Of a DNA stretch of 64,000 nt, positions 7,740-54,565 are shown piece after piece. Where the stretch lies: IMG/VR virus record IMGVR_UViG_3300028992_000036. The stretch is one strand, 5' to 3'. The notes beneath the pieces were generated by a model. That model saw only the letters and a program-made list of their open reading frames with translations. It was not told where the DNA came from and made no database searches. Position 1 is the stretch's first letter; every line of letters starts with the position of its first letter. Both the position numbers and the translations under genes were made by a program. This DNA is from a virus (lineage: Duplodnaviria; Heunggongvirae; Uroviricota; Caudoviricetes).

Positions 7740-7760
7740 AAAAATTCCCTTTGTTACTTA

Positions 7761-9335
7761 TCACTCGTTCTCTTGAGTAGATGAGTCCCCATTCCCTCGG
7801 GGTTGATCTTGCCCGCTTTCTTGGGCTGCACCACGATCATAAGTAAGTACTGACTTATTTTCAAGGGTATTTAGATCATTTTTTGGCGGAAAATTCAAGA
7901 GATCTTTATCAAATTCCTTTTTCATCGCCTCAGTAATGTTCGGGAAAATCTTCTCAATAAGCATTTCCATCTGGTGACGACGTACAGAGTCCGGTGCCTG
8001 AAGTAATGACAGTTTCTCGGCAACAGAAAATTCATCTGTAAGGCCACGAATATCGAAACTTTCTGGATACGCAATTAAAGAGTGGTCTTCGTCCAGATCT
8101 ACCCCCATCCATTTCGCAACCAGTAGCATGATTTGGCGTTCAGCCCTTTCCAGACGCTCTGCTTTTGTGACAAGCAAGCTATTTACACGCTGGAAGTCAT
8201 ACATTTTTGCGGCACCAGATGAGTTATCAATTCCCTGTGCGTTGTCCTGCTTCGTTCGCTCACCAGCGACACCAACTGAATGGTAGATTTCGTTAATCAC
8301 CGTCTTAATCGTAGTGATGATCATCTGAGCTTGTTTCGGGTCTGGTGACAAATAAAACGGCTGGTTTCCACCTTCAGAATCGTAGGTGAAGACTCGCTTT
8401 GTGCCCATTTCAAGCACTTTAGTGTGGTTTTCATCACCAGGTAAAAGCGACTGTACCGGTATAGCCAACTGGCTAAATGTCTGATCCTGAATAATGGCAT
8501 CAAGGTTTGACAGATAGTTTGCAACCGCACGATCAAGATAAGCGATATCATCGATCAACGATGGGCTGAAATACGGTGATTCACTTTCTCCAATACAATC
8601 AACAGGAAACACAGGAACTACGCTGAGATTATGCTCACCGCTATCCTCTAAAATAACTTTTGCCTGACGGCGACCTGCTCCACCAGCGCCCTTCTTCACT
8701 TCCTCACGGAACAGATACCACTCGTTTTGTGTCCACAGACGATAACGTTGGTATTCCTGACCTGTAGAAGTAAAAGGATCTGCGTCATCACGAGCGACTT
8801 CCACAATTAACGCCCACAACATATTCCCGTCGTCGTCCCATGCCACATCCAGCATTTGCTGAGGTGAAATCCAGTAGGCGTAGGCGCGAGCATCTTTCTT
8901 TTTCTCGTCAGCTACTGACTCAACATCACCACTCATCGTGCTATCGACAACAACCCATATGCGACCGTAAATAGACGACTGCAAATCAATAGCGGCCATA
9001 AATGAGTCAATAGAGGCATTCTGGCGAGTCGCACGTTTCCAGAAATTGCGGATCTGCTCTGGTGCCTCTTCGATATTTCTATGAATGTCTTCTTTAAAGA
9101 GATATTTGTTGATGAGGTTTACCACCTCACGAGTGTGGTTGAAGCGATAAGCACGCTCAACTCGCTCCTTAAACTCCTGATCTCCCTCTTTAAAGTAACG
9201 AAAGATATTGTCTGTAAACCAACCACGCCCGCCAGCGTAAGTGCTGGCGAGGAAGTCCCAATGTTCTTTTTTCTTTTCGTATTCCGGGTGGCGTCGCGCC
9301 ACCAGATCCTTAATTTGTTTGTCGTTCAATTCCAT
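7761..9335 (-). CDS. portal protein
   Basis: 524 aa, immediately downstream of terminase large subunit, upstream of scaffold. Confidence 0.6.
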   Translation of the reverse strand: MELNDKQIKDLVARRHPEYEKKKEHWDFLASTYAGGRGWFTDNIFRYFKEGDQEFKERVERAYRFNHTREVVNLINKYLFKEDIHRNIEEAPEQIRNFWKRATRQNASIDSFMAAIDLQSSIYGRIWVVVDSTMSGDVESVADEKKKDARAYAYWISPQQMLDVAWDDDGNMLWALIVEVARDDADPFTSTGQEYQRYRLWTQNEWYLFREEVKKGAGGAGRRQAKVILEDSGEHNLSVVPVFPVDCIGESESPYFSPSLIDDIAYLDRAVANYLSNLDAIIQDQTFSQLAIPVQSLLPGDENHTKVLEMGTKRVFTYDSEGGNQPFYLSPDPKQAQMIITTIKTVINEIYHSVGVAGERTKQDNAQGIDNSSGAAKMYDFQRVNSLLVTKAERLERAERQIMLLVAKWMGVDLDEDHSLIAYPESFDIRGLTDEFSVAEKLSLLQAPDSVRRHQMEMLIEKIFPNITEAMKKEFDKDLLNFPPKNDLNTLENKSVLTYDRGAAQESGQDQPRGNGDSSTQENE

Positions 9336-9361: not shown

Positions 9362-10618
9362 CTATCGAGAACCACCAAGAATAACACGGTTTTTGACTGG
9401 ATACCTACGATGTACTGGATAGCCCAATGCGTCTGCACTATGCTCAATGCCACCTGTCTTATCCATATCTCGTGTTCCAGGCTTGTAGATGACTTTTTCC
9501 AGTGAATCAATCAAATGCTTGCACTTCGGATCGATATACAACCGGATATCTCCAGATGCGGTCATCAGCATTCGGTTAACAGCATTAACACGATCCGCAA
9601 TTGGCGGGTGCTTTTTCGAATAATCGACACGTAAGAATCCCTTCTCTTTGAATATGTCGACGTCAGACTCCCCGCGAGCATGTTGGCGATAAGCACCTGC
9701 CGGATCTGGAAATACCGTTATCTGTGATTTCCAGCGCCAGAAGCGTCTCTCAAGCTCATCACAAACCTCTGCCGTGTTAGAGGAAAAGAGCACCAATTCA
9801 TCAATTGCCCATAGCTCACCATTTGGCTGAGGTTGCAAAATTACTGAAGACATCGGGTCAATGTTGAAGTCCTGCCCTACCCATATAGGCAACCGAGGGT
9901 TGAACTGAAGCGGTTTTACATGCACGTTACGATCGAACGGGTAGTAAACGCGCCCGGACATGTTCTCAAAGCTCGCCAGGTACTCCTGAGCGAACGATTT
10001 CGGGTCCATATCGTTCTTAGCAGCTTCAATTTCCGCCGTAGGCACAAACGGAGAATCGGCAGTTACAAACTGCCAGCTCTTCCACTGTCCCTTTCTTTGC
10101 AGCTCTACGTTCTGGCCTATAGTCCACAGTTTGTGAAATTCCGAGAAACCTTTTGGCGTACCAATGATAAGTGCACCGCCGCGTGTCGATGAAAGAGTAG
10201 GTCGTAACACCTTGTACCAGGTGTCAGCCTTCATATCCTGAAATTCATCAAGCACTACAAAATGCAACGCTACGCCGCGCAGAGTGTCAGGCTTATCAGC
10301 ACCTTTGAGGGCGATCTCCGAACCGTTCTTCAACACGATTGTCATCGTGGTGTCGTTCTTTTTCCTAACCCACTTACGAGGCAGAACTTCCTGTAGATCG
10401 TCCCACAAAATCTGGCGAGCCATCTGGTAAGTAGGAGCGACATACCAGACCCTTTGCTTTTTTTCCTTTGCCGCCGCACGAATAATAGTGGAGATCGACA
10501 ACCGGGATTTTCCCCAGCGTCGACCAGCACAAACAACTTTAAATCGATGCGGAGACTGGAAGACTTTCATCTGTCCAGAATGCAGTTGCACAAGACTGAG
10601 CGAGGACGGGATTGCCAT
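9362..10618 (-). CDS. terminase large subunit
   Basis: Walker A VVCAGRRWGKS, Walker B HFVVLDEF, C-terminal nuclease-type region; start overlaps small-subunit stop (TAATG). Confidence 0.8.
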   Translation of the reverse strand: MAIPSSLSLVQLHSGQMKVFQSPHRFKVVCAGRRWGKSRLSISTIIRAAAKEKKQRVWYVAPTYQMARQILWDDLQEVLPRKWVRKKNDTTMTIVLKNGSEIALKGADKPDTLRGVALHFVVLDEFQDMKADTWYKVLRPTLSSTRGGALIIGTPKGFSEFHKLWTIGQNVELQRKGQWKSWQFVTADSPFVPTAEIEAAKNDMDPKSFAQEYLASFENMSGRVYYPFDRNVHVKPLQFNPRLPIWVGQDFNIDPMSSVILQPQPNGELWAIDELVLFSSNTAEVCDELERRFWRWKSQITVFPDPAGAYRQHARGESDVDIFKEKGFLRVDYSKKHPPIADRVNAVNRMLMTASGDIRLYIDPKCKHLIDSLEKVIYKPGTRDMDKTGGIEHSADALGYPVHRRYPVKNRVILGGSR

Positions 10619-11250
10619 TATTCGTCCTCCCCTTCACTTCCATCATCTGTCGCATCAAATTCGCTTAGAGCTTCTTCTTCCAACGTCTCAAGCAATTCGT
10701 CATCGATGATTTCAGGCTCGTCGTCTTCCTGACGTAATTTCGCCACCTGGGAAGGCGTAAGCTCACCAAATACCAGATTCGGAATTTCTTCCTCGTCATT
10801 TTCCGCATGATCCATGCCCAATGCTTTGGACGAAACTTCAAAGCATTTTGCAAGGGTATTACTGGCTCTCTGTAAGCTCTTGAGAGAATCCTCAATCGCC
10901 CCTAAAGGCTTACCCTCACGTTTGGCCGTAGTGACTTCGACCATCACCATCTGCCCCAACGCATACGCCCAGCCGTCATAACGTGTACGACGTTCTTCTA
11001 TCTTTTCCGCACGGGCTTTAGCGCGAAGCTCTGCGTCAGATTTAAGAGACTCACGAACCATCTTCCCAACAGAGTCCGCGCCTTTCTCTAATCCTCGCTT
11101 TTTGAAATGTCTGGAGAGTGTTTCACGACGAATGCCGTACTCTTCCTCCAGCTTTGAGAGTGTATATTCGCCTGACGTCCATTTGGCTTCAGCTTCGGCC
11201 CACTCCGCTGGTGTCAGGCGAGTTTTTACCTCGTCTTTTTCGACCGTCAT
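10618..11250 (-). CDS. terminase small subunit, putative
   Basis: 210 aa, N-terminal HTH-like region, acidic C-terminus, directly upstream of and coupled to the large subunit. Confidence 0.5.
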   Translation of the reverse strand: MTVEKDEVKTRLTPAEWAEAEAKWTSGEYTLSKLEEEYGIRRETLSRHFKKRGLEKGADSVGKMVRESLKSDAELRAKARAEKIEERRTRYDGWAYALGQMVMVEVTTAKREGKPLGAIEDSLKSLQRASNTLAKCFEVSSKALGMDHAENDEEEIPNLVFGELTPSQVAKLRQEDDEPEIIDDELLETLEEEALSEFDATDDGSEGEDE

Positions 11251-16569: not shown

Positions 16570-17034
16570 ATGAAGTCTCCCATACTGTTCACTTTCTGTT
16601 CTAAAACTATCATGAAATACTCGCTTCTCCCTCTACTAACGTTACCAGTGTTGATGCTTACCGCGTGCCAATCACGCCCAATATCAATCCATGACGCCAA
16701 ACCAGCACCGCAGGCCAAAGTGTTCAAGTATCAAAGCGCAGCGCCAGCTACGTTGGTGGTAATGAGAGACACAGGTTTTGTAGGAGCTGGATGTGATGCT
16801 TCCATTTTCATCAACGGCGAAACTGTCGCAAAACTGGCTACAGGCGAAAAAGCGACTTTCCATTTAAATGCCGGAGAATTAATTGTGGGTGCATCTCTTG
16901 AAGGTGCAGGTTTATGTGCTCTAAACCCCGCTCGTCAAGAGCGAGAAACGACTCTGAAGAATGGAGACACAAAAGCGTTCAGGGTGTTCACCAGCAATTC
17001 TGGTGACATCGACATTCTGCCAACAACTCTGTGA
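16570..17034 (+). CDS. lipoprotein, putative
   Basis: Signal with lipobox LTAC (..LPVLMLTACQ); GGGAGA RBS; alternative start at 16612. Confidence 0.5.
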   Translation: MKSPILFTFCSKTIMKYSLLPLLTLPVLMLTACQSRPISIHDAKPAPQAKVFKYQSAAPATLVVMRDTGFVGAGCDASIFINGETVAKLATGEKATFHLNAGELIVGASLEGAGLCALNPARQERETTLKNGDTKAFRVFTSNSGDIDILPTTL

Positions 17035-17038
17035 TGAC

Positions 17039-17563
17039 ATGACAACCAAAGATATTACCTACGGTATCCAAGCTGAACTCTGGCCGCGAGATTACACTAA
17101 CGTTGAAAAACTACTGATGTTCTGGCGCAGAGAACAAATTCCTGTAAGGGTCACTCTCGAAGATGGCCAGGCGTTTTGCATGTACGTTTATGGCCTCATG
17201 CCATCTCGTAACAAAGTTGACCTTTGCCCAGCCCCTTTTGACAAAGAAAATCGTATAAGGCTCCCACTTGAACGCATTAGTACAATTGAATCAGGTGTGG
17301 TTGACAGTATCGCTCACGATTTCAAAGGTCGACTAACAGTTCACCCTGATTATGTCGATAATCGGCCATCACGCCGCGATTTTTTTGCAATTTGCAACCA
17401 AGCCTACAAAGCAAACAAATCTATAAGGGTGTACATGGCGGATGGCCGTGAAATTGAGGGGGTGTCAGCAGGCGCAGATGCTTGTCAGGTTACACTACGT
17501 GTCGAGAACGGTAGAAAAATAGTTGTTTTGTTCGATTGGGTTGAACGAATTTTGCCTTTTTGA
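17039..17563 (+). CDS. hypothetical protein
   Basis: 174-aa ORF from ATG 17039, directly after the lipoprotein stop. Confidence 0.4.
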   Translation: MTTKDITYGIQAELWPRDYTNVEKLLMFWRREQIPVRVTLEDGQAFCMYVYGLMPSRNKVDLCPAPFDKENRIRLPLERISTIESGVVDSIAHDFKGRLTVHPDYVDNRPSRRDFFAICNQAYKANKSIRVYMADGREIEGVSAGADACQVTLRVENGRKIVVLFDWVERILPF

Positions 17564-18158: not shown

Positions 18159-18809
18159 ATGGCTAACATTATCATTTCTAAAAAATCCATCATTGAAGCT
18201 GCTTCCATTGTATCCGATGAACTGCGCGAAAAAGCAGATCTGGCAACTCAAACATATAACGAACATTATAAAAATGGTACGCACACTAAAGCAGACAAAG
18301 CAAATATGCAAGCTGCGACCACTAAACTTGCTTACTTCATCAACAACGTCGTAAACGCAGTAGAAGACGAAAAATTATGCTCTGTTTTCTACTATGCGAT
18401 TAAAGCAAGCAAACAAGCGCCAGAAGTATTTTTCCGTGATGCAATGACTAATAGTTATTCTCTGGAAAAACTGGTTTATCTGGTTAAATCAATTAAATCT
18501 GGTAAATGCGTTTATTCCATCGCTGATATGTCAGGATCTCGTGTATTCGCTTTAATCGATATGATTAACGACGAGATCGACACGTTCACCAATGGCGCTG
18601 TTTTCGATTTAATGAATGAAGCTAAAAAAGCGTGCGAAATTAAATTGGACGCTGGCTATACTCAAGCCAACCAGTTGATCAATCTTTGCGAACGTCTTGG
18701 ACTTGTTGAGAAAGTCAAAGGAATGGGAAGCGCAAAAGCTGGTACACAGCAATATCGCTTTATCAAGAATGATTTCTACAATTATTTAGCTGATGCTTTT
18801 AAAGCGTAA
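18159..18809 (+). CDS. hypothetical protein in AT-rich moron
   Basis: 216 aa; AAGGAAAAA RBS; markedly lower GC than flanks; followed by a hairpin at 18819-18839. Confidence 0.5.
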   Translation: MANIIISKKSIIEAASIVSDELREKADLATQTYNEHYKNGTHTKADKANMQAATTKLAYFINNVVNAVEDEKLCSVFYYAIKASKQAPEVFFRDAMTNSYSLEKLVYLVKSIKSGKCVYSIADMSGSRVFALIDMINDEIDTFTNGAVFDLMNEAKKACEIKLDAGYTQANQLINLCERLGLVEKVKGMGSAKAGTQQYRFIKNDFYNYLADAFKA

Positions 18810-19315: not shown

Positions 19316-19320
19316 AATCG

Positions 19321-19346
19321 AGCGCCCACTATGGGCGCTTTTTTTC
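19321..19346 (+). terminator. Rho-independent terminator
   Basis: AGCGCCCACTATGGGCGCT hairpin + TTTTTTT; same hairpin (no T-run) at 18819-18839. Confidence 0.6.
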
Positions 19347-19367
19347 GTTTCCAATACACCTACCATA

Positions 19368-19392
19368 ACGCGCCATCATTGGCGCGTTTTTA
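19368..19392 (+). terminator. second hairpin terminator
   Basis: AACGCGCCA-tcat-TGGCGCGTT followed by TTTTT. Confidence 0.45.
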
Positions 19393-19804
19393 TTGTCTTT
19401 AACTCACTCCAACAACATAAAAATAAGCGCCAAAATAACGCCATAGACGCGCTTTTATATCCTTACCAGTACATGCCCATTACTTAACACATTAACGCGC
19501 TTAAAACGCATTATATTGCGCTATAGAGTATGGTTAATCATTGGCTTTTAGTCTTGCTATGTGATCCGCGTTTATTTGTCGGTGCGGATCGGCATTTTGT
19601 TTTGTTCTGTATCCGCTCGCGTATTATGTGCGCGTGATTTTTCACATAATCACACCACTTAATCACGTATGTGATTATGCTACGAAAGAAATCTGGATGT
19701 CTCAGGCGACGAAAGTCATCATAATTTCCCCCGCTCACCTGTCCGACAACCGCTGGTTGGATTCCACCAGCTTCCCGATGTTTTTTCTACACAAAGGCGA
19801 ATGC

Positions 19805-19921
19805 AGCCGTTTCCCGAAAAAATCCTGGCCGTTCCCCGTCGGCTCATGAATACGTTCCTCGCCGTTTCTGAAAATTTCCCTGCGGCAGCTGGTGGCTATA
19901 GAGAAAGGGCCGTTTCTGGCC
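19805..19921. repeat. iteron-like direct repeats (GCCGTT(T)CCC(C)GAA family), cluster 1
   Basis: 4-5 copies at ~20-22 bp spacing in a convergent intergenic region. Confidence 0.45.
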
Positions 19922-19931
19922 CTCTTCTCAG

Positions 19932-20414
19932 TTACACGCCATCAAGGATGTGGATGCGGTTGCTTGCGTATACATTCAGCATAAAGTTAGCGCAAAACAG
20001 TTTCCATGTATCAACGCCAGCGGTATACGTAATGTTTTTGCATTTAATTGCATTGTTGGCGATCCGCATCCCCTGCGATACTGCTTCATCGTCGGAAAAT
20101 TTGAACGACGATTGAGTTTTAATCCAGACAGAAATCTGCGTAGCGAACTCAATCAGCTTGGACTGGCAGAATCGCCCGGAGCGCACCGGAAAGACGAACG
20201 TTCCGAATCCAGAATTTACCACATATGCTTTCTCAAATACCCGCGAGTAACGACGATTGCCAATGATGTCGCGTGCAATAATGCATTTTTCTTGTGCTGA
20301 CAGTTCTACCGTCTCATTGTCGCGCCATGCACCAAGTACTCGTTTTTCAATGTCAGAGAACGTTACAGCGATATTGCCATGTGCGGGTGCGTTTACAGTA
20401 GCGATAAAATTCAT
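19932..20414 (-). CDS. hypothetical early protein
   Basis: 160 aa; AAGGA RBS; motif A upstream at 20435-20467. Confidence 0.5.
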   Translation of the reverse strand: MNFIATVNAPAHGNIAVTFSDIEKRVLGAWRDNETVELSAQEKCIIARDIIGNRRYSRVFEKAYVVNSGFGTFVFPVRSGRFCQSKLIEFATQISVWIKTQSSFKFSDDEAVSQGMRIANNAIKCKNITYTAGVDTWKLFCANFMLNVYASNRIHILDGV

Positions 20415-20764
20415 GATTAATTCCTTATCGTAAATAACAAATTGTTTTCTTGTTGGTGTTAATTATCGTTGTACGAATAAGGCGTCAAAGTGGAAAGTTG
20501 CGGTAGCCGGACGGGAACAGGTGGGTTTGTCGGTTGCCTGGAGGTAAGAGGTTGGTGTTATTAGCCTGAGGGAAACAGGATGGTCATTTAAGACCACCAA
20601 TGCTGGTGGCCTTAATAATTATCGCCCGATTACGCTAAGGATCTTTTCCTCAACTGATTTGTTGTTGCGACTAAACTGCCTTGCGTATCTGATGACAGAA
20701 GAGGCGTTTTGCTTTCTGACCATCTCGGCTCTTTCCTTCAGGCGTTTCTTGAAATCGCCCATAT

Positions 20765-21139
20765 TTACCACCAGGCGCAGAAGGTCAGTCTGTTATTGTG
20801 AAAGTCGTGGTTCTTAATCAGATCTTCCACAAGCTCTTTCAACTGCCCCACATCATGCCAGTAACCTTCGTCGTACTCCTGACTGCCGAAGAAAAAACCT
20901 TCCCGAGTAGGCAAGTACTCTTCGCAATTGCTTTCGTTTATGTGCATCAAATGAGCTTTCAGAAGACAAATGTCATTCATCGTTAATTCTAAAAGCTCAC
21001 AATTTTCGACTTCACCTACGTTGCGCTCCATCCACCCAACGAGCGCATTGAACTTACGGAAGTAAGCAACCTGCTTTCTGGATGCCTCGTTATTCAGATC
21101 GTTTTTAGGCTGTGTCTCGATATAGATATCAAGTCCCAT
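20765..21139 (-). CDS. small acidic hypothetical early protein
   Basis: ATG 21139 with AAGGAAA RBS; motif A core at 21196-21210. Confidence 0.5.
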   Translation of the reverse strand: MGLDIYIETQPKNDLNNEASRKQVAYFRKFNALVGWMERNVGEVENCELLELTMNDICLLKAHLMHINESNCEEYLPTREGFFFGSQEYDEGYWHDVGQLKELVEDLIKNHDFHNNRLTFCAWW

Positions 21140-21256
21140 GATGGTTTCCTTATTAACTTGCTTCAGTAAAATCATTTTCACAAATCAGATAAGGCAGAAA
21201 ACAAATTGTTATCGGGCTTAATAAAATGGCGCGGTTTACGCGCCATTTAAAGAGGA

Positions 21257-21652
21257 TTAAGCGAATACGCTTTCAGGGATTAAGGTGTCGGCAGGAATGC
21301 CAGAGGTAATGCGCAGGCCGTACTGACCAATCCAGGTAGTGTTGGTATTCAGGCTGGAGGCGAATACGGTGTTAACCATATTCATCATGGTTTCAAACAC
21401 CTCTTCATCAACCTGGCGGAAGTAGTTCTCGATTTTCAGCAGCAGCGGGTCAGTTGCATCGAGAATGGACTGGTATTGAGTCGCGTACTCGCCGCCGGAG
21501 GCATCACCTTTACGCACGATCGTACTGGCCTGGACTTCGGCACCAGTTTCGGTGTTGTACGTAACAACGGTAATTTTTGCCACATTCTTACCTTCGGCGG
21601 TTTCAGAGGCATAGTAAACATCAACTGTCAGTTTTTCGCGTTTAACGGTCAT
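21257..21652 (-). CDS. hypothetical protein
   Basis: 131 aa; GGAGAG RBS; preceded by motif B (21695-21716) and a terminator. Confidence 0.5.
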   Translation of the reverse strand: MTVKREKLTVDVYYASETAEGKNVAKITVVTYNTETGAEVQASTIVRKGDASGGEYATQYQSILDATDPLLLKIENYFRQVDEEVFETMMNMVNTVFASSLNTNTTWIGQYGLRITSGIPADTLIPESVFA

Positions 21653-21716
21653 TTCACTCTCCGTAGTGTCTTGATTATTTTTCTATTTTATAATCGTAGG
21701 TATGTACTTACAATAC

Positions 21717-21744
21717 AAAAAAGCCCCGTAAGGATGGCGGGGCT
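21717..21744 (-). terminator. Rho-independent terminator
   Basis: GCCCCG-taaggatgg-CGGGGC hairpin followed by TTTTTT on the minus strand. Confidence 0.5.
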
Positions 21745-21778
21745 GTCGTACGGTCGACTAATTACCACTTGCACATTA

Positions 21779-22090
21779 TCAGGCTATTGCCATCACTGAT
21801 GCTCTCTGAATTTCTTGCTGGGCCACGCGGTTAACTTCCATCAAAGCCAGTTCGAGCTGATGTTCCGGCCACATTCTTTGAAATGCCATCCAGCCTTTTC
21901 CACGCTGGCGACGAACATTCATTACATAACGAGTAAAGGTGTTTTTATCGAAAGACACCGCTGTTTCACGGAACAGACGAATAGAGGTTCCATTGGCAAC
22001 GATGTCCAGCAAAGTTAATTGAGCAACCAGCGCAGGCTTCTCTTTTCTCTTCTGGTCTTTGTCCAGACCAAGAACCAATGATTTTTTCAT
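21779..22090 (-). CDS. small basic hypothetical early protein
   Basis: ATG 22090 with GGAG RBS; motif A at 22102-22135. Confidence 0.45.
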   Translation of the reverse strand: MKKSLVLGLDKDQKRKEKPALVAQLTLLDIVANGTSIRLFRETAVSFDKNTFTRYVMNVRRQRGKGWMAFQRMWPEHQLELALMEVNRVAQQEIQRASVMAIA

Positions 22091-22244
22091 CACAACTCCG
22101 TAAACAACTTGTTTTCTCAATGGCGTAAATAATACCAGTAAGAAAACGGCTACAAAGCATATTGATCAGGTGTATGAGCGATATGCAGGTTCTTCCCTGC
22201 GGCTACAGATGAAGTTAAGCCAGCATTGCTGGCTTTGGTTGGGT

Positions 22245-22574
22245 TTACTCGAATACTTCAAGAAACTCCTGAACGTCCCAATGCTGGACGAGGTGAAGAT
22301 AGACCTTAGAAATCACGTCATTTTCGCTATCGCATGTGAAGTAGTACTTCTGGCTGCGGTTGTATGTGTCCACACAAAATTCGCTCATATCCATAAAGTC
22401 AGCATCTTCACCCATGTCGCAAATCATCAAAGCAGGTGCATCATCACGAGTCATCAGCTCCAGCACCCATCTTGAATTAATCAGAGTGGAAGACCAACCT
22501 TCCAGCTCATAGAACTGGTCAAACTCTTTTTGAGTTAATTTCTTGATTTGGTTGATGTCGATATTTGCAAACAT
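22245..22574 (-). CDS. small highly acidic hypothetical early protein
   Basis: ATG 22574 with AAGGA RBS; motif A directly upstream (22586-22620); D/E-rich composition. Confidence 0.5.
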   Translation of the reverse strand: MFANIDINQIKKLTQKEFDQFYELEGWSSTLINSRWVLELMTRDDAPALMICDMGEDADFMDMSEFCVDTYNRSQKYYFTCDSENDVISKVYLHLVQHWDVQEFLEVFE

Positions 22575-22929
22575 AAAGCAATCCTTAAACAACATGTTTT
22601 CTTGATGGTGTTATTATCGCAATAACGCACAGGCGAAAAAGGATTTTATTCCGGTGAATATGGTTTTGGCAGTGAGTTTTCAGGTTCAGTACCGAGTATA
22701 CTTTTTACATTATTCTGATTTAGTGGCCGAAGGTGGCTGGTGGGCAGAATAATCCTCTCCCCGAAAACCTACTGAAATCGATTGTGACCCGTTGGCTGTC
22801 TGGCACAATTACGCTGTAGCTGGGCATTCAGAGGGAATCCAGCGGTAAGCAAGTCCGCCTACGTGAGCGCCTCTCTTCTTCCCGCACATTACAGGTGGGT
22901 AGCCGCAACTCTCCCTCTCGCTATACCGG

Positions 22930-23075
22930 TACGCCGCCGTTCCTGAACCGGCATCGAGCCTTTTCCCGAAATCCACACAGGCAACTCGACCGTTTCCCTG
23001 AAAACCTCCAGCCGTTCCCCGAAGGCAACCCAGCCGTTTCTGTAGCGGGATGCAACCTTTTCCCTGTATGGACCG
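22930..23075. repeat. iteron-like direct repeats (CCGTT(T)CCC(T)GAA family), cluster 2
   Basis: About six copies at ~21-bp phase; same family as 19805-19921. Confidence 0.45.
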
Positions 23076-24136
23076 AAGGCTGACCGTAGGGGTGTTACGG
23101 GGGATAAAATCAGGAGTTGAATAAATACGAAAAAGGAGGCGACACCCCTCCTTCCCTCCCCACTTATACATACCTGGCTTCTTCGCTATACATGTTGTGT
23201 TTTATCTGTCTCAACCTCTCTATAGGCGTTAATGCTCACTCCTTCCAGAATGTTCTATACGGCAACTATTTCTGTTGGTGAATTGGGTGTGTTGTTCTCT
23301 CTGTCGGTGTATGTGGTTTCGTTCGTTTTGCGGTGGTTCTTCTATGGGGTGTTCTCGTCGTTTTGGTGATTGTTCTTCTCCGTGTATGGAGTAATGGCAG
23401 GTGGGCGATTCCTTTCGTTGTTGTGTTTGAGTTGTTTGTCTGGAGTGTGTGAAAGGCTTTTGCAGTTATTCGTGTATTGGGTAATGGCATTTCCCGTGAT
23501 TGTTGTGTTTCGTGTCTTTTGGGATTGAGAGAAACCTTGCGGTTACAGGCTTCGTTGGGGTTTCAGTGATTCTGGTGTTCTTCGCTGTTTGGGGAATGGC
23601 GTGTCGTGGGTATCGCGCGTATGAATGTTTTCGGATTGCCTGTGAAAGTTAGGTTGGTTGTCCGGTAGCCTGGGGAGAAGAGGTGGGTCTTTTCGGTAGC
23701 CTGCCATAAAGAGGTTGGTTGTTTTTGGAAATGGCATTTGTGTTATTTAGTTGTTTTGTTATGCCTGAAAATAAGTTGTTTATATGGTTGTGTAACGCAA
23801 CGGGAGCGATTTTGAGCGTGTGTTTTTGTTGGTAGTATGTTGGGTCGTCTGTGGTGAAAATTGGACGCTGTGGCGCTGTCTGCTGCGTAGAGTTACGGGT
23901 ATAAGCAGTGATGTGTGAAAACGTCAATTTTTTAGACCAAATCGGGTGAAAGCGTTGATGTTTCGTTGATCTGTTATTCAGTTGTTTTCTTGATTGTATA
24001 AACAACTATAACTTATTGATATTTAAGGATGTGATTGCGGGTATGGAAGAAGAGTAGTGGCGATCAACGGATTCTTATAGAAAAGAATCAAATTGTGACC
24101 GCCATTATCAACTGATTGATTTGTTTACTTGTGTAG

Positions 24137-24535
24137 TCAGTTCTCGAAATGAATAGGGTCAACGTAATGCCGCTCACCGCTTTTACCATTACACAGCACT
24201 GTAACTTTCGCCTTTTCACTCCAGGCTGAGTATAGAAAGTTCCCATCAGGTTGAACATGGTAACGAGAGAAGTAAACATCGCCGACTGAGGCGTCGAACA
24301 TGTTCCTATCTTTTTCACTTTGGGCAAGCGAGATGGATATCACCGAATTCCCATTTGGGGAAACGATTTTAAATTTATTCCCTATATCCATAACAATATT
24401 GTAACCAGGTAATTGCTTGTGTGTTTCCGGATCTATTTTCATGCATCGTGGGTACACGATAGTGTTAGGCTCTTCAACTGGCGTGGCATTAGCAGAAAGC
24501 ACAAAAAATATTAGTGCCAATGGTGCATATTTCAT
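24137..24535 (-). CDS. small secreted protein, putative
   Basis: Signal peptide MKYAPLALIFFVLSANA; GAGGGA RBS; 132 aa; low GC. Confidence 0.5.
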   Translation of the reverse strand: MKYAPLALIFFVLSANATPVEEPNTIVYPRCMKIDPETHKQLPGYNIVMDIGNKFKIVSPNGNSVISISLAQSEKDRNMFDASVGDVYFSRYHVQPDGNFLYSAWSEKAKVTVLCNGKSGERHYVDPIHFEN

Positions 24536-24735
24536 TTATCCCTCACAATTTCCAATTTTCCAGACCATCGTCTATTTCAGCGTCAGGGTGGAATTGTACC
24601 GCATCAAATCCTACATCGAGCACCTTTCGAATGTTCTTGATGGTTAGACTGGCCCCCTGAATCTCCAGACAACCAGTATCACTTAAATAAGTGATAGTCT
24701 TAATACTAGTTTTTAGACTAGTCATTGGAGAACAG

Positions 24736-25101
24736 ATGATTGATGTCTTAGGGCCGGAGAAACGCAGACGGCGTACCACACAGGAAAAGATCGCAATTGT
24801 TCAGCAGAGCTTTGAACCGGGGATGACGGTCTCCCTCGTTGCCCGGCAACATGGTGTAGCAGCCAGCCAGTTATTTCTCTGGCGTAAGCAATACCAGGAA
24901 GGAAGTCTTACTGCTGTCGCCGCCGGAGAACAGGTTGTTCCTGCCTCTGAACTTGCTGCCGCCATGAAGCAGATTAAAGAACTCCAGCGCCTGCTCGGCA
25001 AGAAAACGATGGAAAATGAACTCCTCAAAGAAGCCGTTGAATATGGACGGGCAAAAAAGTGGATAGCGCACGCGCCCTTATTGCCCGGGGATGGGGAGTA
25101 A
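24736..25101 (+). CDS. insC: IS2 transposase OrfA (InsC)
   Basis: [32 protein letters not shown]... recognised as IS2 InsC. Confidence 0.85.
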
Positions 25102-25964
25102 GCTTAGTCAGCCGTTGTCTCCGGGTGTCGCGTGCGCAGTTGCACGTCATTCTCAGACGAACCGATGACTGGATGGATGGCCGCCGCAGTCGTCACACTG
25201 ATGATACGGATGTGCTTCTCCGTATACACCATGTTATCGGAGAGCTGCCCACGTATGGTTATCGTCGGGTATGGGCGCTGCTTCGCAGACAGGCAGAACT
25301 TGATGGTATGCCTGCGATCAATGCCAAACGTGTTTACCGGATCATGCGCCAGAATGCGCTGTTGCTTGAGCGAAAACCTGCTGTACCGCCATCGAAACGG
25401 GCACATACAGGCAGAGTGGCCGTGAAAGAAAGCAATCAGCGATGGTGCTCTGACGGGTTCGAGTTCTGCTGTGATAACGGAGAGAGACTGCGTGTCACGT
25501 TCGCGCTGGACTGCTGTGATCGTGAGGCACTGCACTGGGCGGTGACTACCGGCGGCTTCAACAGTGAAACAGTACAGGACGTCATGCTGGGAGCGGTGGA
25601 ACGCCGCTTCGGCAACGATCTTCCGTCGTCTCCAGTGGAATGGCTGACGGATAATGGTTCATGCTACCGGGCTAATGAAACACGCCAGTTCGCCCGGATG
25701 TTGGGACTTGAACCGAAGAACACGGCGGTGCGGAGTCCGGAGAGTAACGGAATAGCAGAGAGCTTCGTGAAAACGATAAAGCGTGACTACATCAGTATCA
25801 TGCCCAAACCAGACGGGTTAACGGCAGCAAAGAACCTTACAGAGGCGTTCGAGCATTATAACGAATGGCATCCGCATAGTGCGCTGGGTTATCGCTCGCC
25901 ACGGGAATATCTGCGGCAGCGGGCTTGTAATGGGTTAAGTGATAACAGATGTCTGGAAATATAG
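25059..25964 (+). CDS. insD: IS2 transposase OrfB (InsD), DDE catalytic domain
   Basis: GTG start; [23 protein letters not shown]... recognised as IS2 InsD; overlaps insC in the -1 frame. Confidence 0.85.
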
Positions 25965-26567: not shown

Positions 26568-28601
26568 TTACTTAACCTGGTGGCCAGGTTTAGCACCAGC
26601 ATCCGGGCTTAACAGGAAGATATCTTTCCCGCCGGGGCCAGCAGCCATCACCATGCCTTCAGAGATACCGAAGCGCATTTTACGTGGTGCCAGGTTAGCC
26701 ACCATAATGGTGTGACGACCAATCAGTGCCTGTGGATCTGGATAAGCGGAACGGATGCCTGAGAAGACATTACGCTTTTCACCACCGAGATCCAGCGTCA
26801 GGCGAAGCAGTTTGTCAGAACCTTCTACAAACTCTGCGTTTTCAATCAGCGCCACGCGCAGGTCAACTTTGGCGAAGTCGTCAAAGGTGATAGTTTCCTG
26901 AATCGGGTCGTCAGCCAGTGGGCCAGTTACCGGTGCGGCTGTGGCTTTCACTTCTTCTTTGGATGCTTCCACCAGTGCTTCAACCTGCTTCATATCGATG
27001 CGGTTATACAGTGCCTTGAACGGATTCACTTTATGGCCCAGCAGCGGTTGCTGGATACCATCCCAGGTCAGTTCTGTATTCAGGAATGCTTCTGCACGTT
27101 CAGTCAGTTTCGGCAGTACCGGTTTCAGGTACGTCATCAGCACGCGGAACAGGTTAATGCCCATAGAGCAAATCGCCTGCAGATCGGCATCGCGTCCTTC
27201 CTGCTTTGCCACCACCCACGGAGCCTGTTCATCAACATAGCGGTTAGCCAGGTCAGCCAGTGCCATGATTTCACGGATAGCTTTGCCAAATTCGCGGCTT
27301 TCCCATGCTTCGCCAATCACTTCAGCGGCATCAGTAAAGGTTTTGTACAGTTGCGGGTCAGCCAGTTCGCTTGCCAGCACGCCGTCAAAACGCTTGTTGA
27401 TAAAGCCTGCATTACGGGAGGCCAGGTTAACCACTTTGTTAACGATATCGGCATTCACACGCTGAACGAAATCTTCCAGGTTGAGATCGATATCATCAAT
27501 GCGCGAAGAGAGTTTCGCAGTGTAGTAGTAACGCAGGCTGTCGGCGTCAAAATGATTCAGCCAGGTGCTGGCTTTAATAAAGGTGCCGCGAGACTTGGAC
27601 ATCTTCGCGCCGTTCACCGTCACATAGCCGTGAACAAACAGGTTGGTCGGCTTGCGGAAGTTGCTGCCTTCCAGCATGGCAGGCCAGAACAGGCTGTGGA
27701 AGTAAACGATATCTTTGCCGATGAAGTGGTACAGCTCGGCGGTGGAGTCTTTCTTCCAGTATTCGTCGAAGCTGGTAGTGTCGCCGCGTTTGTCGCACAG
27801 ATTCTTGAAGGAACCCATGTAGCCAATCGGCGCGTCCAGCCAGACGTAGAAGTATTTGCCCGGTGCGTTCGGAATTTCAAAACCGAAGTAAGGTGCGTCA
27901 CGGGAGATATCCCACTGTTGCAGGCCAGATTCAAACCACTCCTGCATTTTGTTTGCCACCTGCTCCTGCAACGCACCGCTGCGGGTCCATGCCTGCAACA
28001 TTTCGCTGAAAGAAGGCAGATCAAAGAAGAAGTGTTCGGAATCACGCATTACCGGTGTAGCGCCAGAAACCACTGATTTCGGCTCGATCAGTTCCGTCGG
28101 GCTGTATGTCGCGCCGCAGACTTCACAGTTATCGCCGTATTGATCCGGCGCTTTACATTTCGGGCATGTGCCTTTTACAAAACGGTCCGGCAGGAACATG
28201 CCTTTTTCCGGGTCGTACAGCTGAGAGATGGTGCGGTTTTTAATAAAACCGTTCTCTTTCAGGCGAGTATAGATAAGCTCGGACAACTGACGGTTCTCTT
28301 CGCTGTGCGTCGAGTGATAGTTGTCATAGCTGATGTTAAAGCCTGCGAAATCAGTCTGATGTTCCTGACTCATTTCGCCAATCATCTGTTCCGGTGTGAT
28401 ACCAAGCTGCTGTGCTTTCAGCATGATTGGCGTACCGTGGGCATCGTCGGCACAGATGAAATTAACCTCGTGGCCGCGCATTCGCTGGTAACGAACCCAG
28501 ACATCAGCCTGGATGTGCTCCAGCATATGGCCGAGGTGGATTGAGCCGTTAGCGTACGGCAGCGCGCACGTCACCAGAATTTTCTTCGCGACTTGGGTCA
28601 T
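26568..28601 (-). CDS. metG: methionyl-tRNA synthetase
   Basis: Protein from [29 protein letters not shown]... with class I HIGH motif (HLGH) and KMSKS; 677 aa; track ORF over-extended by 43 codons. Confidence 0.95.
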
Positions 28602-28758
28602 AGTAGGCATTACTTCTTTGTAGTGAAAAGGGGCTTGATAGTAACAAAATGGCCTTATGTCTGCCATGTGATAACAGCATTTCTCATAAATGATTAAATG
28701 TCGTAGCTGGAGTACACTACAAGGCGACAATTGCGCAAATTAAAATAAAGGAGACGGG

Positions 28759-29859
28759 ATGAGCGAGTCCAAATCGCCGGATGCCCTGAGAGCAATGGTA
28801 GCCGGTACGCTGGCTAATTTTCAGCACCCAACCCTGAAACACAACCTGACTACGCTTAAAGCGTTACACCATGTTGCGTTGATGGATGACACACTGCATG
28901 TCGAACTAATCATGCCTTTCGTGTGGAATAAGCCTTTTGAAGACCTGAAAGAGCAATGTAGTGGTGATCTGCTCCGTATCACTGGCGCAAAGGCTATTGA
29001 CTGGAAGCTGTCGTACAACATTGCCACGCTTAAGCGCGTCAAAAACCAACCAGGCATTAATGGCGTTAAGAACATTATCGCCGTCAGCTCAGGCAAGGGC
29101 GGCGTGGGTAAATCCTCCACGGCGGTAAACCTGGCACTGGCGTTGGCTGCTGAAGGTGCGAAAGTTGGTATTTTGGATGCCGATATCTATGGTCCATCAA
29201 TTCCAACCATGCTGGGCGCGGAAAACCAACGTCCAACCTCACCGGACGGTACTCACATGGCACCTATCATGTCTCATGGCCTGGCAACCAACTCTATTGG
29301 TTATCTGGTCACCGACGACAATGCAATGGTGTGGCGTGGACCGATGGCCAGCAAGGCGCTGATGCAGATGTTGCAGGAAACACTGTGGCCTGATCTGGAC
29401 TATCTCGTTCTCGATATGCCACCGGGCACTGGTGATATTCAATTGACGCTGGCGCAGAACATTCCTGTAACTGGTGCGGTTGTGGTAACTACGCCGCAAG
29501 ACATCGCGCTGATCGATGCGAAGAAAGGCATTGTGATGTTCGAAAAAGTCGAAGTGCCGGTACTGGGTATCGTTGAAAACATGAGTGTGCATATTTGCAG
29601 TAACTGCGGTCATCACGAGCCAATTTTTGGCACCGGTGGCGCACAGAAACTGGCCGAGAAATACAACACGCAGTTGTTAGGCCAAATGCCACTTCATATC
29701 TCTCTTCGTGAAGATCTGGATAACGGAACACCAACCGTTATTAGTCGTCCAGATAGTGAATTTACGGCTATTTATCGTGACCTCGCAGATCGCGTTGCTG
29801 CCCAAATGTATTGGCAAGGTGAAGTAATACCTGGCGAAATCGCATTCCGCGCAGTGTGA
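28759..29859 (+). CDS. apbC: Fe-S cluster carrier ATPase ApbC/Mrp
   Basis: P-loop [12 protein letters not shown], CxxC region ICSNCGHHE; divergent from metG as in E. coli; GGAG RBS. Confidence 0.9.
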
Positions 29860-52570: not shown

Positions 52571-52769
52571 ATGTCATTTTTCTGTGATTGTTAGCCGAGG
52601 CAACGATAACCCACCAGGTGCGCCGAAGGTAGTAAATGCCTGTTTTAATTATTCACATATCCACAGGATAGATCCTAATAAAGAGATCCATAGATAGATC
52701 CTTATATAGATCAAATAAGATCCCCGATCGCTGTAAGCCGCGCCACGACTGGTCTGAAGTCATGTTCAT

Positions 52770-52871
52770 GTATGCTGTCAGCGGTAATTGATAGTCTGTC
52801 AGCGGTTCACCGTATGCTGCCAACTGTTTTTGGTATTCTGTCAGCGGCAAATCAAGTATGCTGTCAGCGGT
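52770..52871. repeat. replication iterons, upstream set (5 copies, ~21-22 bp phase)
   Basis: (G)TATGCTGTCAGCGGT-type direct repeats at 52770, 52791, 52811, 52832, 52856. Confidence 0.7.
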
Positions 52872-52891
52872 TGAATGACAAAGGTGTCCAC

Positions 52892-54518: not shown

Positions 54519-54565
54519 GACGACTATGAAATATGACTGCGGAACGTGCCGCAGTCAGTTTGCAT

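What the first reader, a model, noticed from the sequence alone, without database searches (positions are those of the whole stretch)
22621..24136. 1.5-kb non-coding, strand-skewed tract with phased iterons and ~100-bp degenerate repeats
No credible ORF exists here; the only ORFs are low-complexity translations. The plus strand is strongly G+T-rich. It contains about six CCGTT(T)CCC(T)GAA repeats at ~21-bp spacing (22930-23075) and four TGTnTTGGGnAATGGC units about 85-140 bp apart (around 23380-23730). Phased iterons plus skew suggest a replication origin, a packaging site or a structured non-coding RNA locus.
Basis: seen in the sequence. Interest (0 to 1): 0.6.

Follow-up and report, generated by a model that had tools for sequence, protein, structure and literature searches.

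The report
Conserved repeat-rich non-coding region, phage-plasmid
This is a real, uncharacterised 1.5-kb gene-free control region kept by every member of the SSU5/pHCM2 family of phage-plasmids of E. coli, Salmonella and Klebsiella; it carries a phased array of protein-binding repeats next to a strongly strand-skewed tract, and is most likely a DNA-level element such as the origin used for lytic replication, not a structured RNA.

Summary
The window is an SSU5/pHCM2-type phage-plasmid of E. coli. Bases 22596-24136 are truly non-coding. All three observations hold. There are six CCGTTTCC-type repeats in strict 22-bp register. Four ..GGGTAATGGC units follow. G+T reaches 72% on the plus strand, but only in 23180-23900.

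The gap occurs, with the same architecture, in about 750 related plasmids and phages, down to a Cronobacter relative whose neighbouring protein is 37% identical. It diverges about half as fast as synonymous sites. The skew looks selected, not mutational.

No conserved RNA structure exists on either strand, and Rfam finds nothing. A second, paralogous iteron cluster lies 3.2 kb to the left, so the two clusters bracket a block of small early genes. The plasmid's own P1-like origin is elsewhere and uses different iterons. Repressor-operator promoter modules point leftward into the ORF-less tract, which ends in a purine tract and hairpin just before the iterons. The region is silent in a lysogen.

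Best model, about 30% confidence: a transcription-activated lytic origin or other cis-acting nucleoprotein site. Rivals: a Rho-type untranslated leader or insulator, a looping or centromere-like platform, an unstructured long RNA, or small peptides. It is uncharacterised and of moderate interest.

The parts
22587..22621 (-). Promoter and operator of the first early gene: extended -10 TGcGATAAT (22621->22613) followed by the palindrome AAACATGTTGTTT (22599->22587).
   Evidence: 95% conserved across lineages. The same module precedes 8 other minus-strand genes.
22736..22743 (+). Chi site GCTGGTGG.
   Evidence: Exact match. Present at the equivalent place in most lineages.
22782..22809 (+). Rightward promoter-like site TTGTGA-16-(TGg)CACAAT, pointing into the iterons.
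   Evidence: Best-scoring conserved sigma-70-like site; present in 15 of 21 representatives. In the SSU5/pHCM2 lineage an 80-aa plus-strand ORF takes its place.
22937..23064 (+). Array of six iterons (core CCGTTTCC) with spacing 22/31/22/22/22 bp.
   Evidence: The spacing pattern is identical in the representatives examined (E. coli window and L004, E. fergusonii L005, Salmonella Typhi pHCM2 L008), which are about 67-73% identical to the window overall. Klebsiella has three cores at 22-bp spacing plus a fourth, weaker match 42 bp on, and Cronobacter has 3.
23084..23134 (.). Conserved block GTTACGGGGGAT plus a moderately A+T-rich stretch (..TTGAATAAATACGAAAAA).
   Evidence: 72-84% column identity. 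A+T is 0.675 in 40 bp, below the window's 99th percentile of 0.75. GAATAAATACG is also kept in Cronobacter.
23130..23165 (-). Purine tract GUGGGGAGGGAAGGAGGGG and a hairpin, followed by a U-rich tail (terminator-like) on the minus-sense RNA.
   Evidence: Terminator scan. Ten consensus pairs, 95.8% of cells paired, 2 pairs with compensatory changes, and 35 of 120 cells are G-U, which pair only on this strand. Shuffles already give 94%, so the support is modest.
23180..23900 (.). Keto-skewed tract: G+T about 71% on the plus strand, so a leftward RNA would be C+A-rich, with C/G of 2-6 between about 23300 and 23990.
   Evidence: The skew is present in all 12 lineages compared. The polymorphism spectrum erodes the skew, which implies selection.
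23383..23735 (+). Four ..GGGTAATGGC units (23383, 23473, 23585, 23720). The longer units resemble an iteron fused to GTAATGGC.
   Evidence: There are 4-6 copies in other lineages and 4 in Cronobacter.
23659..23724 (+). Two tandem 31-bp repeats, CGGTAGCCTGGGGnnnAGAGGTGGGT.
   Evidence: About 80% conserved. Three more copies lie at 20497-20584.
23769..23800 (-). Operator palindrome AAACAACTTATTT with an upstream -10-like element; a leftward promoter/operator module with no gene behind it.
   Evidence: The block is 69-88% conserved.
23898..23927 (-). Leftward promoter-like site TTGACG-18-TATACC.
   Evidence: Present in 18 of 21 representatives. It lies inside the best-conserved right-hand block.
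23922..24112 (.). Right-hand control block: five CGTTGAY motifs, a half operator and -10-like module (23976-24001), and the inverted repeat TGGCGATCA (24058-24066) / TGACCGCCA (24096-24104). Conservation stops at about 24116, where variable accessory genes begin.
   Evidence: Read from the sequence and alignments.
19807..19920 (+). Second, paralogous iteron cluster (19807, 19829, 19862, and an iteron core inside the terminator hairpin at 19910). It is flanked by a minus-strand Chi (19764) and a plus-strand Chi (19888) and shielded by terminators on both sides.
   Evidence: These are the only two clusters in about 110 kb of the genome examined.

Best explanation
The tract is a conserved cis-acting control region of SSU5/pHCM2-family phage-plasmids that works mainly at the DNA level. 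I commit to it being the origin, or origin-plus-enhancer, used for lytic replication.

Shown:
- Six iterons sit on one face of the helix.
- A paralogous second cluster lies 3.2 kb away.
- These iterons differ from those of the plasmid RepA origin.
- The region is universally retained and under purifying selection.
- There is no coding and no conserved RNA fold.
- Leftward promoter/operator modules carry the same palindrome as the early promoters.
- The region is silent in a lysogen.

Inferred:
- A phage DNA-binding protein coats the phased iterons. One candidate is the strongly conserved 216-aa winged-helix protein at 18159-18809.
- When the repressor that binds the AAACAAnTTGTTT operators is lost, the leftward promoters near 23900 and 23790 fire.
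- They transcribe 650-750 nt of ORF-less DNA whose skew keeps both the RNA and the displaced strand free of hairpins.
- The transcript ends in a conserved purine tract and hairpin about 55 bp before the iterons.
- It thereby activates or primes initiation, in the manner of lambda transcriptional activation, ColE1 RNA II or T4 R-loop origins.
- The element encodes RNase HI and a helicase that the phage Cyrano record annotates as UvsW, which would suit such a mechanism.
For: - Phased iterons: spacing of 22/31/22/22/22 bp is kept in representatives about 67-73% identical to the window, and in-register pairs occur 5 times against 0 expected.
- Only two clusters exist in about 110 kb examined, and the two are paralogous.
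- The plasmid origin is elsewhere: repA at 52772-53986 with 13 GTATGCTGTCAGCGGT iterons and a GATC cluster. A lytic origin is therefore still unassigned.
- The gap is core to the family: 839 plasmid records match it and 745 match the neighbouring gene, with matching genus counts. A relative at 37% protein identity keeps every module.
- Divergence in the gap is about 0.36, against about 0.66 at third codon positions of the neighbouring gene.
- The skew is maintained against the polymorphism flux.
- Leftward promoter/operator modules have no gene behind them.
- A hairpin and purine tract sit at the end of the tract.
- The region is silent in the Cyrano lysogen: CYRAN_103 is at the floor and CYRAN_104 at about background.
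- An IS100 sits inside the gap in a defective 52-kb derivative, so the gap is dispensable for plasmid maintenance.
- rnhA and a DEAD/DEAH helicase are encoded.
Against: - No initiator gene lies beside the iterons, and none is annotated anywhere in the element.
- The replication genes lie tens of kb away around the circular element.
- The A+T-rich stretch next to the iterons is short and unexceptional, and GATC is depleted.
- DnaA-box and IHF-like matches are not conserved (sequence reading).
- A C-rich, G-poor untranslated RNA is an ideal Rho substrate, which would oppose R-loop priming.
- Hairpin covariation is weak, because a purine arm opposite a pyrimidine arm pairs almost regardless of sequence.
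- Transcription in the lytic cycle has not been observed.
- The winged-helix match is generic.
- The Chi orientation switch sits at the second cluster, not at this one.
Confidence: 0.3

Rival explanations
1. Untranslated leader acting as a Rho-dependent attenuator or insulator. Leftward transcripts, either read-through from the accessory genes expressed in lysogeny or transcripts from the in-gap promoters, enter about 650 nt of unstructured C-rich, G-poor RNA. This is a giant rut site. Rho then releases them at the hairpin, which keeps the early gene block tightly off unless an antiterminator acts.
For: The C/G ratio is 2-6 in every 78-nt window between about 23300 and 23990 in minus sense, and flips to 0.5 over the last 120 nt. 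The tract has no ORF and no structure. A hairpin ends the tract. In the lysogen the upstream gene CYRAN_102 is expressed at 57, while CYRAN_103, just downstream of it, is at the floor of 5. The skew is selected.
Against: A rut site needs composition, not conserved motifs. Yet GGGTAATGGC, the 31-bp repeats and the phased iterons are kept even in Cronobacter. Each downstream gene has its own operator-controlled promoter, so an upstream barrier is largely redundant. The drop in expression already occurs at the conserved inverted repeat at the right edge. A 22-bp phase has no meaning for RNA.
Confidence: 0.2
2. A non-replicative nucleoprotein platform. The two paralogous iteron arrays, bound by one phage protein, pair with each other. 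They either loop out or silence the block of five early genes they bracket (19932-22595), or they serve as a centromere-like or handcuffing site.
For: Exactly two clusters exist, in the same orientation, and they bracket the early block in all lineages at 3.2-4.6 kb apart. They are phased on one helical face. Both are shielded from incoming transcription by hairpins. A conserved winged-helix protein is encoded nearby, and partition protein TubR is among its fold matches.
Against: The ParA-like partition genes are far away, at about 47 kb in the reference plasmid CP057685.1. Repression is already explained by the palindromic operators. This reading gives no role to the 700-bp skewed tract.
Confidence: 0.2
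3. A trans-acting, unstructured long non-coding RNA made early in the lytic cycle. It would act as a sponge or decoy for an RNA-binding protein or small RNA through its repeated GCCAUUACCC / ACGGAGAAGAA motifs.
For: Promoter modules have no ORF behind them. Same-strand motifs recur 4-6 times. The RNA is predicted to be open. The element encodes a FljA-like RNA-binding regulator.
Against: There is no match to known sponge logic. GGA motifs are few and are lost from the E. coli copies. (ARN)n runs were not noticeably enriched on inspection, which was not quantified. The GcvB-complementary stretches fall in unconserved columns. No expression was seen in lysogeny.
Confidence: 0.08
4. Small hydrophobic peptide gene or genes on the plus strand (type I toxin-like), for example the open frame 23283-23369 (..FSLSVYVVSFVLRWFFYGVFSSFW*).
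For: The frame is open in most lineages, with frame-preserving indels of 12 nt and 2+1 nt. A rightward promoter-like site lies upstream.
Against: Codon positions show no bias (26/25/34 extra alleles, p 0.42). The start codon is not conserved (ATG, ACG or TTG). Four E. coli-lineage variants have the frame broken, three by an in-frame stop and one by a frameshift. With 14% A, an open frame of 47 codons has a chance probability of about 0.1.
Confidence: 0.05

Closest known systems
ori-lambda (lambdoid phage origin)
   Same: Several direct repeats, each with internal dyad symmetry (GTTTC..GAAAC here), sit about two helical turns apart. An A+T-richer stretch and then a palindrome follow. The origin depends on nearby transcription. 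(The lambda features are from established knowledge; the features here are.)
   Different: ori-lambda lies inside its initiator gene O, whereas here no initiator gene is adjacent. This element has six repeats rather than four. Lambda has no equivalent of the 700-bp keto-skewed tract, the GTAATGGC units or a second distant cluster.
Satellite phage P4 ori plus crr
   Same: Two separated clusters of the same short iteron, a few kb apart. (The P4 arrangement is from established knowledge; here.)
   Different: The iteron sequence is unrelated. No alpha-type primase-helicase initiator has been identified here. Whether both clusters are required is untested.
ColE1 RNA II and T4 oriF/oriG R-loop origins
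   Same: A promoter far upstream makes a long untranslated transcript that ends at the initiation zone. A G-rich RNA segment lies near its end. The element encodes RNase H and a helicase annotated as UvsW in the phage Cyrano record.
   Different: RNA II is highly structured, whereas this RNA is predicted to have no conserved structure. No R-loop or primer has been shown, and the C-rich RNA should attract Rho.
P1-type plasmid replicon (oriR-repA-incA), present in the same window
   Same: An iteron-based control region in a phage-plasmid.
   Different: The iterons differ (GTATGCTGTCAGCGGT against CCGTTTCC). That replicon has repA between its iteron sets and a GATC cluster; the finding has neither.
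Rho utilisation (rut) regions, such as lambda tR1
   Same: C-rich, G-poor, unstructured, untranslated RNA upstream of a release zone.
   Different: It is about ten times longer than typical rut sites and carries conserved sequence motifs and DNA-phased repeats.

Membership tests
Iteron-type replication origin | Three or more direct repeats in helical register | tested here: met
   Six cores at 22/31/22/22/22 bp, with the register conserved across lineages.
Iteron-type replication origin | Adjacent A+T-rich DNA-unwinding element | tested here: inconclusive
   The best adjacent 40-mer has A+T of 0.675, against a window 99th percentile of 0.75. The A+T-richest part (23987, 0.825) is not conserved.
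Iteron-type replication origin | Cognate initiator gene next to, or overlapping, the repeats | tested here: not met
   The neighbouring genes are small proteins of unknown function. No Rep or O-like family was found by Pfam, PHROGs or PDB searches. The nearest predicted DNA-binding protein, a 216-aa winged-helix protein, is 4 kb away.
Iteron-type replication origin | Host-factor sites (DnaA boxes, IHF, GATC clusters) | tested here: not met
   There are 2 GATC in 1.5 kb, against 4.5 per kb in the window as a whole. The one-mismatch DnaA box and the IHF match are not conserved.
Iteron-type replication origin | Supports initiation of replication | not testable with these tools
   This needs marker-frequency analysis or an origin-cloning assay.
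P1-like plasmid origin of this element (RepA iterons) | Carries the RepA-binding iteron | tested here: not met
   The RepA iterons GTATGCTGTCAGCGGT occur only at 52766-54518.
Structured non-coding RNA (any Rfam family) | Match to a curated covariance model | tested here: not met
   No hit at gathering thresholds on the whole window, and none at E<=1 on 22400-24300.
Structured non-coding RNA (novel) | Conserved secondary structure with covariation | tested here: not met
   Consensus energies are 0 to -9.3 kcal/mol per 120 nt on both strands. Only one short terminal hairpin is conserved.
Rho-dependent terminator / rut region | At least 80 nt of untranslated, unstructured RNA with C>G | tested here: met
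   C/G is 2-6 between about 23300 and 23990 in minus sense. The tract is non-coding and has a weak fold.
Rho-dependent terminator / rut region | Transcribed in that sense and released by Rho | not testable with these tools
   Only promoter-like sites are available. The lysogen data show silence.
Phage packaging site (pac/cos) | Lies at or next to the terminase genes, or at the virion DNA ends | tested here: not met
   The terminase genes are at 9362-11250. The tract is internal in all deposited phage records.
Type I toxin-antitoxin (small hydrophobic peptide) | Small ORF under protein-level selection | tested here: not met
   There is no codon-position bias, the start codon is variable, and some variants have in-frame stops.

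The most novel reading that the evidence does not exclude
The family has evolved a new kind of cis element, in which selection keeps about 700 bp keto-skewed so that neither DNA strand nor the transcript can fold. This would create a long, permanently open track that delivers an untranslated RNA, as an R-loop primer or as a Rho-loading track, to a phased iteron array. The second iteron array 3-4 kb away would act as its partner. Such a structure-free origin or switch has no described counterpart in phages or plasmids.
Probability: 0.15. Interest if true: 0.75.

Novelty: new variant of a known kind. Interest (0 to 1): 0.5.

Why it matters
SSU5/pHCM2-type phage-plasmids are common in clinical E. 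coli, Klebsiella, Enterobacter and Salmonella Typhi, and they can carry resistance genes. How they switch from plasmid maintenance to lytic replication is not known, and the paper searches run here found no description of this region. A 1.5-kb non-coding segment that is as conserved as the neighbouring proteins is the obvious place to look for the lytic origin or the switch. The phased iterons and the operator palindrome give concrete handles for genetics and for ChIP or EMSA experiments. The selected strand skew is an unusual feature, and it may show how a long unstructured tract is used in cis.

Tried and rejected
- **Rfam:** no hits on the whole window at gathering thresholds, nor on the gap at E<=1.
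- **Global and local RNA structure:** nothing on either strand in single sequences or in a 21-sequence alignment. Only one terminal hairpin is conserved.
- **Coding potential:** rejected on substitution periodicity, indels and the lack of conserved ORFs. The one attractive small plus-strand ORF was rejected on codon-position counts, its variable start and in-frame stops.
- **Binding sites for the plasmid RepA:** rejected, because the iterons are different.
- **Chi decoy or cluster:** Chi-like octamers are not enriched in the skewed tract.
- **GcvB, Hfq or CsrA sponge:** the complementary or motif stretches are not conserved.
- **RfaH ops resemblance of CGGTAGCCTG:** it lies on the strand with no downstream genes, so I treat it as chance. 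This rests on recalled knowledge of ops and was not tested further.
- **Helical (10-11 bp) periodicity or curvature in the skewed tract:** none above shuffled controls.
- **Mutational origin of the skew:** per-site C>T and G>A rates are similar and the net flux erodes the skew.
- **Similarity to the E. coli fliC 5' UTR, the target of FljA:** only a 12-mer at the second cluster, E 0.038, and probably chance.
- **Homologues outside the family:** the distant phage search found only SSU5-like elements. The one genome-contig scan was wasted on too loose a pattern and returned only chance hits.
- **Literature:** nothing on this region.
Full report
**What the window is**

The 1.9 kb around the finding is 100% identical to E. 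coli plasmid pRHB17-C18_2 (CP057685.1) and 92-96% identical to Escherichia phages Cyrano, CMS-2020a and PhiR41_1. It also matches Salmonella phage SSU5.

The window is therefore an SSU5/pHCM2-type phage-plasmid of about 110 kb. It holds structural genes at 1-14 kb, a plus-strand block at 14.7-19.3 kb, and small minus-strand genes at 19.9-22.6 kb. The gap follows, and then come variable accessory genes. Relative to CP057685.1 the window carries an extra IS2 at about 24600-25964.

**Checking the observation**

- **Non-coding.** The gap 22596-24136 lies between minus-strand genes 22245-22595 and 24137-24535 and has no credible gene. Substitutions against eight homologues show no three-base periodicity anywhere in 22660-24100. 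The adjacent gene 21779-22120 gives p = 1e-11 to 1e-17. Alignments are full of indels that are not multiples of three.
- **Skew.** G+T peaks at 0.717 in the 700-nt window starting at 23301 (z = 7.4), and no other part of the window exceeds 0.60. The skew is confined to about 23180-23900; the left third is not skewed.
- **Iterons.** The six short repeats are real. Cores sit at 22937, 22959, 22990, 23012, 23034 and 23056, with spacing 22/31/22/22/22. Two cores exactly 22 bp apart occur five times in the window against zero in 100 shuffles.
- **GTAATGGC units.** The four ..GGGTAATGGC units lie at 23383, 23473, 23585 and 23720.

**Conservation**

- The gap matches 839 PLSDB plasmids in distant mode. 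The matches come from Klebsiella, Escherichia, Enterobacter, Salmonella (including Typhi pHCM2), Citrobacter, Cronobacter and Shigella.
- The neighbouring 103-aa protein is found in 745 plasmids with practically the same genus counts: Escherichia 220 against 224, Enterobacter 90 against 90, Salmonella 49 against 49, Citrobacter 25 against 25. The gap is therefore a core feature of the family.
- About 90 further Klebsiella hits are fragments of the right-hand third inside large plasmids. These look like recombination remnants.
- Conservation is patchy, with blocks of 75-96% column identity separated by variable stretches.
- Mean divergence in the gap is about 0.36. First and second codon positions of the neighbouring gene diverge by 0.24-0.32, and third positions by about 0.66 (computed). 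The gap is therefore under purifying selection.
- A distant relative, the Cronobacter sp. JZ38 plasmid, has a neighbouring protein only 37% identical. It still has a 1.57-kb gap in the same place, with iterons, GAATAAATACG, four GTGGGTAATGGC units, one copy of the 31-bp unit, two operators and GGGTATAAG.

**Anatomy, left to right on the plus strand**

1. The promoter (extended -10, TGcGATAAT) and operator palindrome of the first early gene.
2. A Chi site at 22736, kept in most lineages.
3. A rightward promoter-like site, TTGTGA-16-TGgCACAAT, ending at 22809 and present in 15 of 21 representatives. In the SSU5/pHCM2 lineage an 80-aa plus-strand ORF takes its place.
4. The six iterons.
5. A conserved block and a modestly A+T-rich stretch.
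6. A purine tract plus hairpin that reads as a terminator on the minus strand.
7. The skewed tract, with the GTAATGGC units and two tandem 31-bp repeats.
8. A right-hand control block holding:
   - an operator palindrome at 23769;
   - a promoter-like TTGACG-18-TATACC facing left, present in 18 of 21 representatives;
   - a half operator;
   - five CGTTGAY motifs;
   - an invariant inverted repeat at 24058-24104.

Conservation stops just beyond this block, where the variable accessory genes begin.

**Context that bears on function**

- **Operator regulon.** The palindrome AAACAAnTTGTTT occurs at 14 sites in the window against about 1.5 expected. It sits 8-13 nt after the -10 of minus-strand promoters that precede real genes. 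This looks like the operator of a repressor. The two modules inside the gap have the same orientation but no gene behind them.
- **Second iteron cluster.** A paralogous cluster lies at 19807-19920 in another conserved 600-bp non-coding region. These are the only two clusters in about 110 kb of the genome examined, and both are present in all lineages. Together they bracket the five small early genes.
- **The plasmid's own origin.** It lies elsewhere and is of the P1 type. A RepB-family gene at 52772-53986 is flanked by 13 GTATGCTGTCAGCGGT iterons and a cluster of six GATC.
- **Expression in the lysogen.** In the published LF82/Cyrano transcriptomes the spurious CDS covering the right part of the gap (CYRAN_103) is at the detection floor. 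The one covering the iteron part (CYRAN_104) is near background. The gene just upstream (CYRAN_102) is expressed (PMC9928086, S1 table). The region is therefore silent in lysogeny.
- **Dispensable for plasmid maintenance.** A defective 52-kb derivative carries an IS100 inside the gap.

**RNA or DNA?**

- Rfam finds nothing.
- Single-sequence folding gives z = -1.2 for the minus strand and +1.0 for the plus strand.
- RNAalifold on 21 diverse sequences gives near-zero consensus energies on both strands.
- The only conserved element is the terminal hairpin on the minus strand. It has 95.8% of cells paired, two compensatory pairs and many G-U pairs that would be mismatches on the other strand. Because one arm is all purine and the other all pyrimidine, shuffles already reach 94%.
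- A structured RNA is therefore not supported. A strict 22-bp register conserved across lineages, while the spacer sequence changes, argues for a protein array on double-stranded DNA.

**The skew**

- Within four clades, per-site C>T and G>A rates are similar.
- Polymorphisms that remove G or T from the plus strand outnumber those that add them, 171 against 101 (counts summed).
- The skew is thus being eroded by mutation and must be maintained by selection.
- A leftward RNA would be 40% A, 33% C, 13% G and 14% U, with C/G of 2-6 between about 23300 and 23990. The ratio flips to G>C in the last 120 nt.
- Neither DNA strand, nor the RNA, can form hairpins.

**Interpretation**

I commit, at about 30% confidence, to a cis-acting DNA element for the lytic phase. 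Most probably it is the lytic origin or a part of it.

The case for it:
- phased iterons that are distinct from the RepA iterons;
- an A+T-richer stretch and a palindrome beside them;
- shielding by hairpins;
- silence in lysogeny;
- dispensability for plasmid maintenance;
- a distant partner cluster;
- repressor-controlled promoters that would send an untranslated, structure-free transcript up to the iterons on induction.

The element encodes RNase HI and a DEAD/DEAH helicase that the phage Cyrano record annotates as UvsW. Both enzymes handle R-loops. The steps from protein binding onward are inferred, not shown.

The weaknesses:
- no initiator gene nearby, and none annotated in the element;
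- no strong unwinding element and no GATC or DnaA clusters;
- a C-rich untranslated RNA should be a Rho target.

**Rivals**

- A Rho-type untranslated leader or insulator between the expressed accessory genes and the silent early block (0.2).
- A looping, silencing or centromere-like platform formed by the two iteron arrays (0.2).
- A trans-acting unstructured RNA (0.08).
- Small hydrophobic plus-strand peptides (0.05). The frame is open and its indels preserve the frame, but there is no codon-level signal, the start codon is variable, and some variants have in-frame stops.
- A packaging site is unlikely.

**Comparison with known systems, and novelty**

The region resembles ori-lambda in having phased dyad-symmetric repeats, an A+T-richer stretch, a palindrome and a dependence on transcription. 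It resembles P4 ori/crr in having two separated clusters. It resembles ColE1 and T4 R-loop origins in having a long untranslated transcript ending at the initiation zone.

It fails the membership features that could be tested for an iteron origin, namely an adjacent initiator gene and host-factor sites. It also has features that none of these systems has: a selected 700-bp keto-skewed tract and dispersed GGGTAATGGC units.

The paper searches run here turned up no description of the region. I rate it a new variant of a known kind, of moderate interest.

Noticed in passing
window 16961-17563 (+): A 200-aa ORF (about 174 aa annotated) matches Pfam PF03614, 'Repressor of phase-1 flagellin' (FljA), at E 2.5e-84. 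It also has a weak Hfq-like C-terminal hit (E 0.001, below the cut-off). A 'transcriptional regulator' of the same size is annotated at the syntenic position in phage Cyrano and in the distant Cronobacter plasmid, but homology was not tested. It may repress host flagellin, or act on the element's own RNAs.
   Followed up: partly
window 11291, 11316, 20435, 21199, 22102, 22587, 23769, 26420, 26471, 30094, 33002, 33716, 34445, 44664: The palindrome AAACAAnTTGTTT occurs at 14 sites against about 1.5 expected. Most sites lie 8-13 nt downstream of a GATAAT-like -10 of minus-strand promoters. This looks like the dispersed operator regulon of the phage repressor, comparable to the scattered C1 operators of P1.
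   Followed up: partly
window 19316-19931: A second conserved non-coding region of about 600 bp. It holds two plus-strand terminators, inverted repeats around 19640-19680, and the second iteron cluster. That cluster is flanked by a minus-strand Chi on its left and a plus-strand Chi on its right in all lineages. This is the orientation expected on either side of a bidirectional origin, or one that shields the cluster from RecBCD.
   Followed up: partly
window 52650-54520: A P1-like plasmid replicon. A RepB-family gene at 52772-53986 has about 4 GTATGCTGTCAGCGGT iterons upstream and about 9 downstream (incA-like), plus six GATC sites at 52671-52726.
   Followed up: partly
whole window: Chi (GCTGGTGG) is strongly over-represented: 13 sites against 1.7 expected. 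One-mismatch variants number 85 against 39 expected. At least one Chi (20602) forms part of a terminator stem (CCACCAatgcTGGTGG at 20596-20609); close plus/minus Chi pairs in other lineages suggest the same.
   Followed up: partly
window about 24600-25964: An IS2 insertion, with TnpA and TnpB above the NCBIfam cut-offs. It lies between the 132-aa gene and the DUF1380 gene and is absent from the otherwise identical CP057685.1.
   Followed up: yes
window 20497-20584: Three further copies of the 30-bp CGGTAGCCTG..GAGGTGGGT repeat lie just upstream of the promoter of the gene ending at 20414. This position suggests an activator-binding array. The core CGGTAGC resembles the RfaH ops element but sits on the strand with no downstream genes.
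   Followed up: no
window 19835-19846 (minus strand) and E. coli K-12 fliC 5' UTR (L151): An exact 12-mer, TGAGCCGACGGG, is shared between the fliC leader and the second iteron cluster (E 0.038), followed by GGAAAC-like sequence in both. It is probably chance, but notable given the FljA-like gene.
   Followed up: partly
L152 (CP057422.1), locus 7046-8847: A 52-kb plasmid derived from this family, much smaller than the usual ~110 kb, carries IS100 inserted in the left part of the gap, at or near the first iteron.
   Followed up: no
window 26568-28730 and 28759-29859: The accessory region next to the gap encodes a full-length methionyl-tRNA synthetase and an ApbC/MinD-like ATPase. The latter is expressed in the Cyrano lysogen.
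   Followed up: no
window 22245-22595 (-): The first early gene downstream of the gap (116 aa, phrog_7645) has a weak sequence match to a plant multicystatin (PDB 4lzi, E 1.5e-4). This hints at a cystatin-like protease-inhibitor fold.
   Followed up: no
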